Shown piece after piece: positions 1 to 8,927 of a DNA stretch of 39,734 nucleotides. The stretch is taken from contig JAIOTH010000019.1 in assembly GCA_021106915.1 (NCBI GenBank), forward strand, positions 1-39,734, read 5' to 3'. The translations under genes and the position numbers were made by a program. This DNA is from a bacterium. GTDB taxonomy: Bacteria > Patescibacteriota > Patescibacteriia > UBA1558 > S5-K13. The stretch's first letter is position 1, and each line of letters begins with the position of its first letter. A model generated the notes under the pieces. It was not told the DNA's origin, ran no database searches, and saw only the letters and a list, made by a program, of their open reading frames with translations.

Positions 1-1681
1 ACATATTACTATTTTCAGGAGCACTAAGTTCGGCTTCATTATCAACTAAAAATGAATCCATTTCTCCGCTAACCATATCTATTGGATACCATAACAAACA
101 TCTATTTTTTAATTTTTCGGGATCTTCAATTAAATTACTATGACCAGAAATAGAAGTAGTTAATAAAGAATGATCATAATCTAGACAAAATCCCTTCCAA
201 CCCAAATAATTAATTTTACTATCTAATCTTAAATCAGTAGCATATTCACCCTCATAAGAATAAGGATTCACAATTTCATCTGGTATTTTATCGTAATCAT
301 AAGGAAAAAATAAATTTTCTGAACCATAAGAAGCCTTAGTGTAACTACAATCACAATCTAATCCTGGATCTAAAATAGAAAAACTACCCTCTCCATCTGT
401 GCCAATTATTTCAGCTACTGGCTGACAAATATTGGTACTAGCAAATTTAGAATCCGGTGATTTAATTAAAGCGTACTTTCTAACTGCATAATGAAAATCA
501 GCTCCTTCAACTTTATCTACTAAATTATTATTTTCGGTCCACACAAAAGGAGCATCTTTCTCTGGATAAATCCGACATGATTTTTCAACTGCTTTTTTAT
601 AATTATTAGTATTATAATCATCCAATGGGTTTTCTAATCCCATTCCCAATCTATATAAATAATGGTCATCTCCTGATCTTTTAACTATTAACTCCCCTAT
701 TCTATAATCTGATTTTTCTCCCTCTCCAAACGAAATATCAAAAGAACTTAAACTATCTATCGGATATGATCCTGGAATAGAATAACCACTATAATCCATG
801 GTTGACCAATTATCTTTCTTACCCAAAGCTGATTGATAATAATCAAAATTAAGAGGATTAACATTATTTCTCATCACAATATTAGCACAAGATTCTTTAG
901 ATAAAGAAGTTTGTGATATTTCATCACAAGCAATCAAAGAAATACAAGAATCCTTAATTTGTCCAGTTTTATTATCCATAATTCTCATGCTAGAACCACA
1001 AGTAGCCCATTCTCCACATTCTCTATCTCTATTAACCCTTAATAACTCATTAACATCTCCTGGAAAAACATCATCCACTCCAAAAAGACTTCCTTGTTCA
1101 TAACTTTGTTGAGCATTCCATAAAAGTTCTGGATTACTGGTATTATTAAACAAAACACAGCCTGATTCAAAGCTACTTCCTGGTTTAAGATCAGCTTTCT
1201 TACAAGTATCTCGATCTAATTTATCATTATCTAAATATGAATAATGTCCATTTATTTTTTCTAATTTAACATCTTTAATTAAAATTGATGAATCTAGATC
1301 CCCTAAAGTATTAAAAGCTACGCTACAATAATTTCCTCCTGGCAACACTTCATATAAACCATAAATATGATGCCAGTCATACTCTACTCCGTTTTCAGCA
1401 TAAGAATAATTGGAATTAACAGAAGGAAAGGCATAAGGAATACTGAAACCATTCAAATAACCATTATTAGAAATAACACATTCACATTGATCACTACAAA
1501 CAATCTCTGCTCCCTTAAAACAATGTAAATTTTCTTCACATTCTTCACCTGGTTCTACTATGCCGTTTGTAGATCCACCAACACAAGCTGCTAAAGAACT
1601 TGAAACTGAAAATAAAAAAATAAAGAATATCAAAATAAATATTTGATTGATAATTCTTAAAATTTTAATTTTGTTTTTCAT
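1..1681 (-). CDS. Large secreted cysteine-rich protein, first 560 codons only (the gene runs off the left edge); probable lipoprotein
   Basis: This ORF is absent from the ORF track because it is open at the window edge. My own minus-strand translation from ATG 1681-1679 gives MKNKIKILRIINQIFILIFFIFLFSVSSSLAACVGGSTNGIVEPGEECEENLHC... I found no in-frame stop in the segments I checked codon by codon (1-120, 600-660, 1560-1681), and the rest reads as protein-like. It has a signal peptide with a lipobox-like LAAC. Its composition is Cys/Asp/Asn/Tyr/Gly-rich, like the two upstream ORFs. It starts 14 nt after the stop of the 914-aa ORF. Confidence 0.75.
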   Translation of the reverse strand, partial: MKNKIKILRIINQIFILIFFIFLFSVSSSLAACVGGSTNGIVEPGEECEENLHCFKGAEIVCSDQCECVISNNGYLNGFSIPYAFPSVNSNYSYAENGVEYDWHHIYGLYEVLPGGNYCSVAFNTLGDLDSSILIKDVKLEKINGHYSYLDNDKLDRDTCKKADLKPGSSFESGCVLFNNTSNPELLWNAQQSYEQGSLFGVDDVFPGDVNELLRVNRDRECGEWATCGSSMRIMDNKTGQIKDSCISLIACDEISQTSLSKESCANIVMRNNVNPLNFDYYQSALGKKDNWSTMDYSGYSIPGSYPIDSLSSFDISFGEGEKSDYRIGELIVKRSGDDHYLYRLGMGLENPLDDYNTNNYKKAVEKSCRIYPEKDAPFVWTENNNLVDKVEGADFHYAVRKYALIKSPDSKFASTNICQPVAEIIGTDGEGSFSILDPGLDCDCSYTKASYGSENLFFPYDYDKIPDEIVNPYSYEGEYATDLRLDSKINYLGWKGFCLDYDHSLLTTSISGHSNLIEDPEKLKNRCLLWYPIDMVSGEMDSFLVDNEAELSAPENSNM

Positions 1682-1694
1682 TTTCTTAAATAAT

Positions 1695-8148: not shown

Positions 8149-8207
8149 TATATTAGTCGAGCTCAGCTCGATTAGTATCAATTCCATTAGTATCATTAGT
8201 ATTACTA
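8149..8207. repeat. ATTAGTAT-word repeat with TCGAGCTCAGCTCGA palindromic core
   Basis: The sequence tatattagtcgagctcagctcgattagtatcaattccattagtatcattagtatt lies between the 240-aa and 1218-aa genes. It belongs to the same family as 21006..21153. Confidence 0.8.
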
Positions 8208-8927
8208 CATTTCACTTAAAACTTGCTGATATGCTTTTTGCAAATCATCATCTGAAATATCTTCTAAATCTTCAGCTTTAGCTCCCGACTGAATCAATAA
8301 AGCTCTAATTTGTTCAGTGTTTAAATTTTTAAATTCATCTAATTGAGATTGATCTAAATCAATAGAGCTAGACTGAGCACCAAATTCTTCTAAAACAGTA
8401 GCTACATTAGACATAGATTCTCCTTCTAAATTATCTATCAAACTTTCTGGATAACCCATTTGTATTAAATATGGTTTTAATTCGCTTAAAGTTTGAGCAT
8501 CAAATACTGCATCTGATCCCAAAGAAAATATATCTAATTCATTTGTTTTTTCCGCAACCGTGATAGTGTCACAACTACCATCAGCACAGGTAGTATTATT
8601 CAAAACCATTTCTTCATAATCTGAAATTCCATCCAAATCCGTATCTGCTAAATAAGGACTAGTGCCATAAAAATTTTCCTCTTCATAATCTGAAATTCCA
8701 TCTTTGTCTGTATCCTTAAGTCTATTCAAAGACTCAATCATTCCTGCCCTATCTTCCAATTTCAAAGGTGAAACTGTGAAAGCATTTTTGATTCCTGAAC
8801 TCATATTCCAAAAACCAAGAAAAAGAGCTAAGGCCCCCACTAAAAAAATGACTTTTATTCCTACCGACTCTCGAGAAAAATAATCAACTATTTTATTTAA
8901 AAAACTTTTTTTTTCAGTGTCCACCAT
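8205..8927 (-). CDS. Membrane-anchored protein with thrombospondin type-3-like calcium-binding repeats
   Basis: It has an N-terminal TM helix (IKVIFLVGALALFLGFW) followed by two DxDxDGxxDxxE repeats (DTDKDGISDYEE and DTDLDGISDYEE) and an acidic C-terminal half. It is the first gene of the minus-strand cluster. Confidence 0.8.
   Translation of the reverse strand: MVDTEKKSFLNKIVDYFSRESVGIKVIFLVGALALFLGFWNMSSGIKNAFTVSPLKLEDRAGMIESLNRLKDTDKDGISDYEEENFYGTSPYLADTDLDGISDYEEMVLNNTTCADGSCDTITVAEKTNELDIFSLGSDAVFDAQTLSELKPYLIQMGYPESLIDNLEGESMSNVATVLEEFGAQSSSIDLDQSQLDEFKNLNTEQIRALLIQSGAKAEDLEDISDDDLQKAYQQVLSEM

What the first reader, a model, noticed from the sequence alone, without database searches (positions are those of the whole stretch)
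1..8927. Minus-strand cluster: a TSP3-repeat membrane protein followed by more than 2,600 codons of secreted, cysteine-rich, modular proteins, a candidate uncharacterised cell-surface apparatus
**Seen in the sequence.**
- Four co-directional genes are separated by 14-70 nt: 240 aa, 1218 aa, 914 aa, and a partial gene of more than 560 aa.
- The first has a TM anchor plus two DxDxDGxxDxxE calcium-binding repeats.
- The second and fourth have clear signal peptides. The fourth has an LAAC lipobox.
- The large proteins have no TM anchor, LPXTG motif or other sorting signal that I can see.
- They are extremely rich in Cys. I count about 39 by hand in the 914-aa ORF.
- They are also rich in Asp, Asn, Tyr and Gly.
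- They are built from recurring modules: Cys-rich linker ...C-S-x-F-I..., then a jelly-roll/CBM-like start NxIxNGSFE/FDNFESGG...W.
- A CGDG...EVCDG...DC Myxococcus-type Cys repeat and a W-x-W-x-C..GGG..C-S-A motif also occur.

**Established knowledge.** Such Cys density is unusual for bacterial extracellular proteins and implies disulfide or metal stabilisation.

**Inference.** In an episymbiotic, reduced-genome lineage this much coding capacity (about 22 percent of the window) is a plausible host-attachment or host-interaction structure. I recognise no characterised family for the N-terminal 330 aa of the 1218-aa protein.
Basis: partly seen in the sequence, partly recalled or inferred. Interest (0 to 1): 0.8.

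Follow-up and report, generated by a model that had tools for sequence, protein, structure and literature searches.

The report
Split giant Patescibacterial surface-protein gene
The three big cysteine-rich ORFs are pieces of one roughly 3,100-residue secreted protein gene with sugar-binding-type modules; intact, it sits with the small calcium-repeat membrane protein beside type IV secretion genes in hundreds of ultra-small Patescibacteria, and I found no characterisation of it.

Summary
The raw observations hold: ORF coordinates, spacers, 36/39/20 Cys, two TSP3 motifs, signal peptides and recurring motifs. The gene count is wrong.

B (1218 aa), C residues 1-611 and D residues 73-560 are consecutive parts of one ancestral gene. 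In 61 related loci it is a single complete ORF of 2,499-3,475 aa.

This copy has two breaks:
- an in-frame TAA at 4479-4481, where relatives have Glu;
- a lineage-specific 1.14-kb insertion (1466-2606) carrying a stop codon and a new lipoprotein signal peptide.

There is no decay. Every Cys invariant in nine relatives is kept (B 34/34, C 17/17, D 12/12).

The family is large: 1,225 clusters at 50% identity and at least 421 GTDB species. All named hits are "hypothetical", in Komeilibacteria, Uhrbacteria, Falkowbacteria and similar groups.

Synteny is near-universal: KsgA, a TSP3 membrane protein, the giant, a VirB6-like polytopic protein, then a cytoplasmic protein. In 10 loci VirB3 (PrgI), a TraC-like gene and, in 8 of them, VirB4 follow directly.

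The only confident fold is a CBM16/22-like jelly-roll.

Best reading (function inferred): a disulfide-stabilised, glycan-binding surface adhesin or stalk of the Patescibacterial T4SS-like apparatus. The family is uncharacterised but widespread, and this copy is an atypical broken one.

The parts
8205..8927 (-). Gene A: 240-aa single-pass membrane protein. It has a short cytoplasmic N-terminus and a TM at aa 21-39. Outside the membrane it has two TSP3-type Ca-binding repeats (aa 72-83, 95-106), a conserved Cys pair (C114, C119) and an acidic C-terminal part.
   Evidence: Pfam TSP3_bac scores 24.4 bits (cut-off 25) here, and 38.7 bits in the L001 orthologue. In a 78-member alignment of this protein (77 orthologues plus the window's own A), every member sits just upstream of the giant gene and has 1-2 TSP3 motifs.
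4482..8135 (-). ORF B: the first 1218 codons of the giant gene. It has a signal peptide (about aa 1-33, read by eye), a family-specific N-terminal region (aa ~34-480) and Cys-rich hairpin repeats flanking jelly-roll 1.
   Evidence: It aligns end to end with residues 1-~1235 of 3,000-aa relatives at 37-43% identity. The AF2 model of aa 1-640 has low confidence and gave no Foldseek match.
5256..5738 (-). CBM-like beta jelly-roll 1 (B aa ~800-960, begins NLIPNGSFE).
   Evidence: AF2 pLDDT is 71-91 for model residues ~200-330 (B ~820-950). Top Foldseek PDB hits are CBM16, CBM22, the hyaluronan-binding module and CBM61, with E about 1e-7 and target TM 0.6-0.78. Viral hits are CBM-cenC modules of phage tail proteins.
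4479..4481 (-). In-frame TAA that ends ORF B (break 1).
   Evidence: Sequence read. It aligns with Glu in P0004 (RRELSS) and Ser in P0003. One BLASTP HSP runs across it (BC 974-1720 vs P0003 689-1375, E 8e-75). TAA is the normal stop here (17 of 25 genes).
4440..4478 (-). Thirteen in-frame codons (NSNPLIIYNAVPS). They look intergenic but are conserved coding sequence of the giant gene.
   Evidence: Relatives read ELSSKIYKVAPSMSRTCS where the window reads *NSNPLIIYNAVPSMSRACS.
2607..4439 (-). ORF C aa 1-611: the middle part of the giant gene. It has jelly-roll 2 (aa ~20-215, nt 3795-4382), Cys-rich hairpin repeats and the first half of a probable third jelly-roll. It has no signal peptide of its own.
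   Evidence: BLASTP to relatives covers residues ~1248-1807. CBM_4_9 hits fall at the equivalent place in P0003, P0004 and P0006. hhalign gives module 1 vs 2 a probability of 94.7% and module 1 vs 3 73.8%.
1466..2606 (-). Lineage-specific 1.14-kb insertion (break 2). It comprises the C tail aa 612-914 (Cys-rich, with a CGDG..VCDG Myxococcus-type repeat), the stop at 1695-1697, a 13-nt spacer, and the D head aa 1-72 (lipoprotein-type signal peptide ending LAAC, then a Cys-rich stretch). C and D are in different frames.
   Evidence: It is absent from seven close relatives, where the flanks are ~7 aa apart. It has no similarity to 150 family members. The only outside matches are tandem CGDG..CDG repeat proteins of high-GC organisms. 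There are no flanking repeats.
1..1465 (-). ORF D aa 73-560: the continuation of the giant gene, cut by the contig end. About 850 further residues are expected.
   Evidence: BLASTP to relatives covers residues ~1814-2285 at 42-43% identity. Contig length equals window length.
9138..9166 (-). Best sigma-70-like match in the region (TTGTCA-17-TATAAT, 11 of 12), at the 3' end of ksgA and upstream of gene A.
   Evidence: This is a consensus match only. The count of such sites in the region is not above the shuffles.

Best explanation
**Shown**
- The region holds two conserved Patescibacterial genes.
- The first encodes a small single-pass membrane protein with two extracellular TSP3 calcium-binding repeats.
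- The second encodes one giant (~3,100 aa) Sec-exported protein with no anchor of its own. It has a family-specific N-terminal region, many short C-x6-C hairpin repeats and at least two (probably three) CBM-type jelly-rolls. The rest is lost at the contig end.
- In this genome the giant gene is interrupted twice: by a single nonsense codon, and by a 1.14-kb insertion that ends one ORF and starts the next with a lipoprotein signal peptide.
- All three pieces still keep every family-invariant cysteine.

**Inferred from gene neighbourhood and domain type**
- The pair forms the outward-facing part of the Patescibacterial type IV secretion-like apparatus.
- The giant protein is exported and stiffened by disulfides (and perhaps Ca2+).
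- It is held at the surface by the TSP3 protein and/or by the large extracellular part of the adjacent VirB6-like protein.
- It binds host-envelope polysaccharide through its CBM modules. That would give the cell contact which PrgB-type adhesins give in Gram-positive conjugation systems.
- In this lineage the protein is probably made as two or three polypeptides: B; C only if the TAA is leaky or an error; and D as a lipoprotein.
For: **One gene**
- BLASTP colinearity with seven relatives.
- A single HSP runs across the TAA.
- 61 related loci have a complete single ORF of 2,499-3,475 aa. Another 22 are cut only by contig ends.

**Family size and spread**
-.

**No decay**
- Invariant Cys kept: 34/34, 17/17 and 12/12.
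- Other invariant columns kept: 93%, 94% and 91%.
- Identity ratios against relatives are 0.89-0.97.

**Export without an anchor**
- 138 of 146 full-length members have an N-terminal hydrophobic segment.
- None has a C-terminal hydrophobic segment or LPXTG.

**CBM fold**
-, plus Pfam CBM_4_9 in homologues.

**Neighbourhood**
- KsgA, the TSP3 protein and the giant occur together in 77 of 78 loci with upstream sequence.
- The next gene has 6-7 TM segments. Ten of 36 members match TrbL/VirB6 PF04610, best E 4e-7.
- PrgI follows directly in 10 loci, a TraC-like gene in 9 of them and VirB4 in 8.

**Literature**
- A survey of Patescibacterial T4SS found KsgA frequent near virB4 and 'no adhesins, such as PrgB' (PMC12102498).

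**Fission is tolerated**
- L001 has the same gene split at a similar place, and its second gene has its own signal sequence.
Against: - Function rests on neighbourhood and one domain type. No binding, localisation or expression data exist.
- In the clade closest to the window (L002, L009-L012, L026) the four-gene module is followed by EF-P on the other strand, not by VirB3/VirB4. The link to the ATPase core is therefore not universal.
- The window itself ends inside D, so VirB6-like and T4SS genes cannot be shown for this genome.
- AF2 models were poor outside the jelly-roll (mean pLDDT 50.5 and 46.7). The N-terminal region and the Cys-rich parts remain structurally unassigned.
- Sugar-binding residues of the CBM-like modules were not examined.
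- ORF C has no signal peptide. As annotated it could not reach the surface.
- No Dsb or VKOR gene lies on this contig.
Confidence: 0.5

Rival explanations
1. This copy is a freshly inactivated pseudogene. The nonsense codon and the insertion have knocked out the giant protein in this lineage, and what remains has no function and has not yet decayed.
For: - TAA sits where relatives have a sense codon.
- ORF C lacks a signal peptide and starts at a conserved internal Met.
- The insertion falls inside a probable jelly-roll, FLSCK | IPYAFP.
- The window is the only one of 86 loci (the window plus L001-L085) that is in three pieces.
- The C segment is slightly more diverged than the others (ratio 0.89 vs 0.94-0.97).
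Against: - In a 30% GC genome, 914-, 1218- and >560-codon ORFs stay open.
- All invariant Cys and 91-94% of other invariant columns are retained in every piece.
- The 303-codon insert tail is itself an open, Cys-patterned reading frame.
- D has acquired a well-formed lipoprotein signal peptide, which argues for selection on export of that piece.
- An independent fission at a similar site exists in L001.
Confidence: 0.2
2. The breaks are artefacts or minority variants of the metagenome assembly. In the real population the gene is one continuous ORF, possibly with an in-frame Cys-repeat domain insertion.
For: - The sequence is a MAG contig seen once (1 member sequence, 1 contig).
- Break 1 is a single-base difference (GAA or TCA to TAA).
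- The perfect retention of invariant residues is what an intact gene would show.
Against: - Break 2 is not a simple indel. D's frame carries a canonical n-h-c signal peptide with a lipobox right after an ATG. A hydrophobic 20-mer in the middle of a secreted protein would be odd.
- The TAA is not in a homopolymer.
- Read data are not available, so this cannot be excluded for break 1.
Confidence: 0.15
3. The giant protein and the TSP3 protein form a surface structure unrelated to type IV secretion. Examples would be a cell-coat or S-layer-like sheath, or a scaffold that captures environmental polysaccharide. The adjacency to a VirB6-like gene would then be inherited gene order only.
For: - In the window's nearest clade no VirB3/VirB4 follows the module.
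- The cluster is embedded among housekeeping genes (LeuRS, MFS, KsgA, EF-P) and looks vertically inherited.
- CBM modules are typical of polysaccharide capture.
Against: - The VirB6-like gene follows the giant gene in all 46 loci where the next gene could be identified. In most of them the gap is only 0-40 nt.
- Ten loci continue without a break into VirB3 (PrgI), most of them then into a TraC-like gene and VirB4.
- S-layer proteins are typically poor in Cys (general knowledge). No catalytic glycoside-hydrolase domain was found.
Confidence: 0.25
4. The giant protein is a secreted toxin or effector, with CBM modules acting as a receptor-binding part, as in Cry or binary toxins.
For: The Foldseek list includes Cry protoxins and iota-toxin Ib among the jelly-roll matches.
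Against: - Those matches are to the same generic jelly-roll, with low query TM (0.17-0.2).
- No toxin or enzymatic domain appears in Pfam, NCBIfam, PADLOC-independent scans or PHROGs.
- It is a single-copy, syntenic core gene in hundreds of species. It is not polymorphic at its C-terminal end, where the last ~400 aa are conserved.
Confidence: 0.05

Closest known systems
PrgB / aggregation-substance adhesins of Gram-positive (MPF-FATA) conjugative T4SS
   Same: A large Sec-exported surface protein encoded beside T4SS membrane components. It is proposed to bind envelope polymers of the partner cell. The Patescibacterial T4SS is reported to be MPF-FATA-like (PMC12102498).
   Different: There is no polymer-adhesin domain and no LPXTG. 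There is no sequence similarity. This protein is about three times larger, is about 4% Cys, and is built from C-x6-C hairpins and CBM-type jelly-rolls.
CBM4/9/16/22 (CenC-type) carbohydrate-binding modules
   Same: The fold of B aa ~810-950 matches (Foldseek E about 1e-7, target TM up to 0.78). The start motif N-x-[IL]-x-N-G-x-F-E matches. Homologues pass or nearly pass Pfam CBM_4_9.
   Different: The window's own modules do not reach any Pfam hit at E<=1. They are not attached to a glycoside hydrolase. Ligand-binding residues were not assessed.
Phage receptor-binding, minor-tail and neck-appendage proteins with CBM-cenC modules
   Same: The same jelly-roll module sits in very long, modular, host-surface-binding proteins. 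There is a weak NCBIfam GTA_spike_fiber hit (E 0.017).
   Different: No PHROG family matches. The context is chromosomal, syntenic and housekeeping, with no phage genes around it.
CglD and other bacterial TSP3-repeat (PF18884) surface proteins
   Same: Gene A has two canonical DxDxDGxxDxxE calcium-binding repeats. The weak NCBIfam hit to CglD covers these repeats.
   Different: CglD is a 1,124-aa lipoprotein. A is a 240-aa type-II-like membrane protein with an acidic tail. The similarity is limited to the repeats.
Myxococcus-type cysteine-rich repeat proteins (TIGR02232 / DUF4215)
   Same: The inserted segment carries WCGDGTKNSDEVCDGTDFGGEDC. This aligns with tandem CGDGxxNGxExCDG repeats in two metagenome contigs.
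   Different: Only one clear repeat is present (a second, degenerate one is in D's head). HMMs did not call it. It lies in the lineage-specific insert, not in the conserved family body.
Extended VirB6 proteins of T4SS
   Same: In relatives the gene after the giant has a TrbL/VirB6-like 6-7-TM domain plus a long extension of 400-1,100 aa.
   Different: That gene is not in this window. The giant protein itself has no TM domain beyond its signal peptide.

Membership tests
Unnamed Patescibacterial giant Cys-rich protein family (e.g. P0004, P0005; 'hypothetical protein') | Colinear homology over the whole protein. | tested here: met
   B maps to 1-1235, C1-611 to 1248-1807 and D73-560 to 1814-2285 of P0004, and likewise for six other relatives. 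phmmer E is as low as 5e-291.
Unnamed Patescibacterial giant Cys-rich protein family | Family-invariant cysteines present. | tested here: met
   63 of 63 Cys columns invariant in nine relatives are Cys in the window.
Unnamed Patescibacterial giant Cys-rich protein family | Encoded as one ORF of ~2,500-3,500 aa. | tested here: not met
   The window has three ORFs (TAA at 4479-4481; insertion at 1466-2606). 61 related loci have one complete ORF.
Unnamed Patescibacterial giant Cys-rich protein family | Synteny: KsgA, small TSP3 membrane protein, giant. | tested here: met
   Window: ksgA 9152-10006, A 8205-8927, then B. The same order holds in 77 of 78 loci with upstream sequence.
T4SS-associated module (giant + VirB6-like + VirB3/VirB4) | VirB6-like gene directly downstream, and VirB3/VirB4 nearby. 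| not testable with these tools
   The contig ends inside D. In relatives, VirB6-like follows in 46 loci (10 of 36 match PF04610), PrgI follows in 10 loci and VirB4 in 8 of those. The window does hold a T4SS_pilin-domain protein at 24083-25351.
Pfam TSP3_bac (PF18884) | HMM score at or above the gathering cut-off (25 bits). | tested here: inconclusive
   Gene A scores 24.4 bits, E 2.5e-5. The orthologue in L001 scores 38.7 bits. Two exact DxDxDGxxDxxE motifs are present.
Pfam CBM_4_9 (PF02018) / CenC-type CBM | HMM match. | tested here: not met
   B, C and D have no Pfam hit at E<=1. Homologues do: P0006 scores 28.0 bits (cut-off 25.9) and the L001 second gene 34 bits.
Pfam CBM_4_9 (PF02018) / CenC-type CBM | Beta-jelly-roll fold of a CBM. 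| tested here: met
   AF2 pLDDT 71-91. Foldseek matches CBM16 and CBM22 with E about 1e-7 and target TM 0.6-0.78.
Pfam CBM_4_9 (PF02018) / CenC-type CBM | Carbohydrate-binding cleft residues or actual sugar binding. | not tested
   No ligand-site analysis or experiment was done.
PrgB-type T4SS adhesin | Polymer adhesin domain and a C-terminal LPXTG sortase signal. | tested here: not met
   No such Pfam domain was found. LPXTG is absent from B, C and D and from the last 60 aa of 146 full-length relatives.
Myxococcus cysteine-rich repeat (TIGR02232 / DUF4215) | HMM match to the repeat. | tested here: not met
   There is no NCBIfam or Pfam hit at E<=1 for C or D. tblastn similarity to tandem CGDG..CDG repeat proteins exists (31% over 151 aa; 53% over 32 aa).
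Bacterial lipoprotein (ORF D) | Lipobox [LVI][ASTVI][GAS]C after a hydrophobic h-region. | tested here: met
   MKNKIKILRIINQIFILIFFIFLFSVSSSLAAC. The hydrophobic segment is at aa 14-32. Whether Lgt and Lsp are present in the genome was not tested.

The most novel reading that the evidence does not exclude
The giant Cys-rich multi-CBM protein and its TSP3 membrane partner are the so-far unrecognised extracellular host-contact component of the type IV secretion-like machine of ABY1-type Patescibacteria (Komeilibacteria, Uhrbacteria, Falkowbacteria). They would be a structurally new adhesin or stalk that replaces PrgB-type adhesins. The natural fissions (this window and L001) would show that it works as separable N- and C-terminal subunits, the latter lipid-anchored here.
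Probability: 0.3. Interest if true: 0.75.

Novelty: new variant of a known kind. Interest (0 to 1): 0.55.

Why it matters
Patescibacteria make up a large share of uncultured bacterial diversity and depend on host cells. In Saccharibacteria the T4SS-like system is essential for epibiotic growth (PMC10633639). A phylum-wide survey found no adhesin associated with it (PMC12102498).

A ~9-kb gene kept in hundreds of species with genomes of about 1 Mb is a heavy investment. It is always paired with a calcium-repeat membrane protein and a VirB6-like protein. That makes it a concrete, testable candidate for the host-recognition part of the apparatus in a major class that has no cultured representative.

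For annotation, the result shows that the three 'hypothetical proteins' in this MAG are one disrupted gene. It also shows that most of the family (the N-terminal ~480 aa and the Cys-hairpin repeats) has no Pfam model.

Tried and rejected
- **Family scans.** Pfam, NCBIfam and PHROGs scans of B, C and D found nothing significant. PDB sequence searches also found nothing.
- **Word-index searches.** With B this returned only itself. With C it returned one relative. The exhaustive HMMER search was needed to find the family.
- **AF2 of B 1-640.** Mean pLDDT was 50.5 and Foldseek PDB gave no match with E<1. The N-terminal region stays unassigned.
- **AF2 of B 621-1218.** Only the jelly-roll was confident, and the Cys-rich repeats were not modelled.
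- **Stop-codon reassignment.** Rejected, because TAA ends 17 of 25 genes.
- **Mobile-element origin of the insertion.** No flanking direct or inverted repeats of note. No homologue was found in family members, fetched loci or metagenomes apart from generic CGDG repeats.
- **Accelerated decay of C and D.** Only a small excess of divergence in C and no loss of invariant residues.
- **Phage origin.** Rejected: no PHROGs hit and a housekeeping context.
- **Dsb/VKOR on the contig.** None found.

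
Full report
**1. What is in the sequence**

The window is a complete 39,734-bp MAG contig with about 30% GC. NCBI labels it 'bacterium', and the 1218-aa protein has locus tag K8R66_00585.

Four co-directional ORFs lie on the minus strand at its left end:
- A: 8205-8927, 240 aa.
- B: 4479-8135, 1218 aa.
- C: 1695-4439, 914 aa.
- D: 1-1681, 560 codons, running off the contig.

- Spacers are 69, 39 and 13 nt.
- Cys counts are 36, 39 and 20 (3.0-4.3%), against 1.24% in 14 other genes.
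- A has two exact DxDxDGxxDxxE motifs and one TM segment.
- B and D have signal-peptide-like N-termini, and D has the L-A-A-C lipobox.
- No LPXTG or C-terminal anchor is present.
- The quoted motifs are all at the stated positions.
- C-x6-C-xx-[FYW] is enriched: 3 in B and 4 in C, against 0.12-0.20 in shuffles.

**2. The three large ORFs are one gene**

B's TAA and C's ATG are in the same frame, 13 codons apart...ECISLRR*NSNPLIIYNAVPSMSRACS....

The single word-index relative of C is P0003 (1493 aa). It aligns across this junction in one HSP: BC 974-1720 against 689-1375, E 8e-75. It has Ser where the window has TAA.

The exhaustive HMMER search with B found 1,225 clusters at 50% identity, 964 of them at E<=1e-30. 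Most of the best 150 are 2,500-3,300 aa, with a median of 2,858 aa and a median Cys content of 3.9%.

Seven relatives at 37-46% identity carry everything in a single ORF. In P0004 (3137 aa):
- B matches residues 1-1235.
- C aa 1-611 matches 1248-1807.
- D aa 73-560 matches 1814-2285.

The P0004 sequence reads ...IKIRRELSSKIYKVAPSMSRTCS... So the TAA replaces a Glu codon, and C's 'start' is a conserved internal Met. That explains why C has no signal peptide.

The second break is a 1.14-kb segment at 1466-2606 that the relatives lack. It consists of:
- C's tail, aa 612-914;
- a stop codon;
- 13 nt;
- D's head, aa 1-72, with the lipoprotein signal peptide.

C and D are in different frames. The segment lies within what relatives encode as ...FLSCK(7-30 aa)IPYAFP..., a loop of a probable third jelly-roll.

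The insert has no similarity to 150 family members and no flanking repeats. A metagenome scan returned only high-GC contigs encoding tandem CGDGxxNGxExCDG repeats.

**3. Is this copy decaying?**

TAA is the ordinary stop codon here, ending 17 of 25 genes. There is no sign of recoding.

Against nine relatives, every column where all nine have Cys is Cys in the window: B 34/34, C 17/17, D 12/12. Other invariant columns are kept at 93%, 94% and 91%.

Identity to relatives, relative to their identity to each other, is 0.94 and 0.97 for the two halves of B, 0.89 for C and 0.95 for D.

The pieces are therefore not eroded. The nonsense codon is either very recent, a variant or error, or read through. 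The second break looks like a genuine fission, because D gained a well-formed export signal.

An independent precedent exists in L001 (GCA_054043305.1). There the gene is split into 1493 aa plus 1374 aa. The second protein has its own N-terminal hydrophobic signal, and its residues 263-1226 align with the C-terminal halves of ~2,700-aa family members.

**4. Distribution and neighbourhood**

A scan of one genome per GTDB species, using two peptide patterns, found 421 loci encoding a relative. Informative titles are Candidatus Komeilibacteria, Uhrbacteria, Falkowbacteria and Parcubacteria/Patescibacteria group. The many 'uncultured Gammaproteobacteria' TPA titles look like placeholder labels. 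Source names for the proteins are only 'hypothetical protein [Patescibacteria group bacterium]'.

I surveyed ORFs in 85 loci:
- 61 have one complete ORF of 2,499-3,475 aa.
- 22 are cut by contig ends.
- L001 is split in two, and L029 ends at 1,819 aa.
- No locus other than the window is in three pieces.

The closest relatives are L006 and L007, with LeuRS 74-75% identical. L007 has an intact 3,298-aa gene. In L006 a single unbroken ORF of at least 2,288 aa spans both break points before the contig ends. In both, the insertion-site flanks are only about 7 aa apart.

Upstream, the order KsgA then a 187-292-aa homologue of A holds in 77 of 78 loci with upstream sequence. All 78 aligned small proteins (77 orthologues plus the window's own A) have one or two TSP3 motifs, within a conserved block KDTDxDGLxDYDELYxYxTSPYLxDTDSDG...DPNCPxGxC.

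Downstream, in 46 loci the next gene (711-1,498 aa) starts with 6-7 TM helices. Ten of 36 such proteins match Pfam TrbL/VirB6, best E 4e-7. A 380-720-aa cytoplasmic protein with no Pfam hit follows. In 10 loci PrgI (VirB3) follows it without a break, a TraC-like gene in 9 of them and a VirB4-type ATPase in 8.

In the Komeilibacteria-like clade nearest the window, the four-gene module is instead followed by EF-P on the other strand.

**5. Structure**

The AF2 model of B 1-640, from a 13-sequence alignment, was poor: mean pLDDT 50.5. It shows long low-confidence helices up to about aa 360 and moderate confidence for aa 375-640. Foldseek found nothing.

The AF2 model of B 621-1218 had mean pLDDT 46.7. 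Model residues ~200-330 (B ~820-950) reached 71-91 and form a beta jelly-roll. Matches were:
- In the PDB: CBM16, CBM22, the hyaluronan-binding module and CBM61, with E about 1e-7 and target TM 0.6-0.78.
- In the viral library: CBM-cenC modules of phage tail and neck proteins.

Profile comparison links jelly-roll 1 to jelly-roll 2 at 94.7% probability, and less firmly to the split third module at 73.8%.

Of 146 full-length relatives, 138 have an N-terminal hydrophobic segment. None has a C-terminal one or LPXTG. The protein is therefore exported but needs a partner to stay on the cell.

**6. Most likely function**

*Shown:* the region holds a conserved two-gene surface unit. One gene encodes a TSP3 membrane protein. 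The other encodes a giant secreted protein rich in Cys and carrying several CBM-like modules. The unit is tightly linked to a VirB6-like gene and, in many lineages, to the VirB3/VirB4 core.

*Inferred:* the giant protein is the outward-reaching, host-glycan-binding adhesin or stalk of the Patescibacterial T4SS-like apparatus.
- It would be stabilised by disulfides, since the invariant positions are mostly Cys.
- It would be held by the Ca-binding TSP3 protein and/or by the VirB6-like extension.

This fits the literature:
- The Patescibacterial T4SS resembles Gram-positive MPF-FATA systems.
- It is essential for epibiotic growth in a Saccharibacterium.
- KsgA is frequent near virB4.
- No PrgB-like adhesin was detected (PMC12102498; PMC10633639; PMC12857230).

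None of these papers, nor my other literature searches, mentions this family. I give the functional inference about 0.4-0.5. I give the 'one disrupted gene of a large conserved family' part more than 0.95.

**7. Rivals**

- A freshly dead pseudogene (0.2).
- An assembly or variant artefact, mainly for the TAA (0.15).
- A surface coat or polysaccharide-capture scaffold unrelated to T4SS (0.25).
- A toxin (0.05).

The evidence for and against each is given in the rival entries.

**8. Novelty and score**

The kind of thing, a giant modular surface adhesin next to secretion genes, is known. This family is not described and has no Pfam model apart from weak CBM_4_9 or fn3 hits. It differs from PrgB-type adhesins in every tested defining feature. 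I therefore rate it a new variant of a known kind.

It is not rare, and the copy in this window is an atypical, broken one, which lowers the interest of this particular locus. The family-level lead, a candidate missing adhesin of the ABY1 T4SS, keeps it moderately interesting (0.55).

Noticed in passing
window 12396-16118 (-): The leucyl-tRNA synthetase is 1240 aa and carries two inserted domains. One is Ham1p-like (aa 262-332, E 4e-6). The other is a Ser_hydrolase / alpha-beta hydrolase (aa 603-778, E 5e-19). Relatives vary: L002 has the hydrolase insert, L003 has Ham1 plus NUDIX, and others are ~800 aa with no insert.
   Followed up: partly
window 24083-25351 (+): A 422-aa secreted protein with 42 Cys (10%) in its N-terminal 300 aa and a C-terminal T4SS_pilin domain (PF18895, E 1.4e-7). 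It is a second very Cys-rich surface protein and the only T4SS-related gene on the contig.
   Followed up: partly
window ~23000-24500: GC skew changes sign (negative to the left, positive to the right). Gene orientation switches from minus to plus at the same place. This is the pattern expected at a replication origin, although no dnaA is on the contig. The giant-gene cluster lies about 15-23 kb from it. A published survey notes T4SS genes near the origin in Patescibacteria.
   Followed up: no
window 11565-12386 (-): A Bro-N domain protein (273 aa, E 2e-15) sits between LeuRS and the MFS transporter. In L002 those two genes are adjacent with nothing between them. It may be a small mobile or phage-derived insertion.
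   Followed up: no
window 25458-25748 (+) and 23522-23905 (+): Small stand-alone GIY-YIG (96 aa) and PD-(D/E)XK (127 aa) nuclease ORFs flank the Cys-rich pilin gene.
   Followed up: no
L001 1-3084: The relative GCA_054043305.1 has an array of seven tandem T4SS_pilin genes (117-150 aa). It lies about 6 kb upstream of its KsgA, TSP3 and giant gene cluster.
   Followed up: no
P0004 residues ~2290-2730 (and the equivalent in L007, L009-L012): Among close relatives the giant protein has a stretch of about 450 aa with no detectable similarity, between the conserved D-equivalent part and a conserved C-terminal ~400 aa. The C-terminal part contains a DWGDG...YKN motif. This may be a hypervariable, specificity-determining region. 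It lies beyond the end of this contig.
   Followed up: no
L006-L085 record titles: Many TPA MAG records that clearly carry Patescibacterial gene order are titled 'uncultured Gammaproteobacteria bacterium'. This looks like a placeholder or mislabel in the source records.
   Followed up: no
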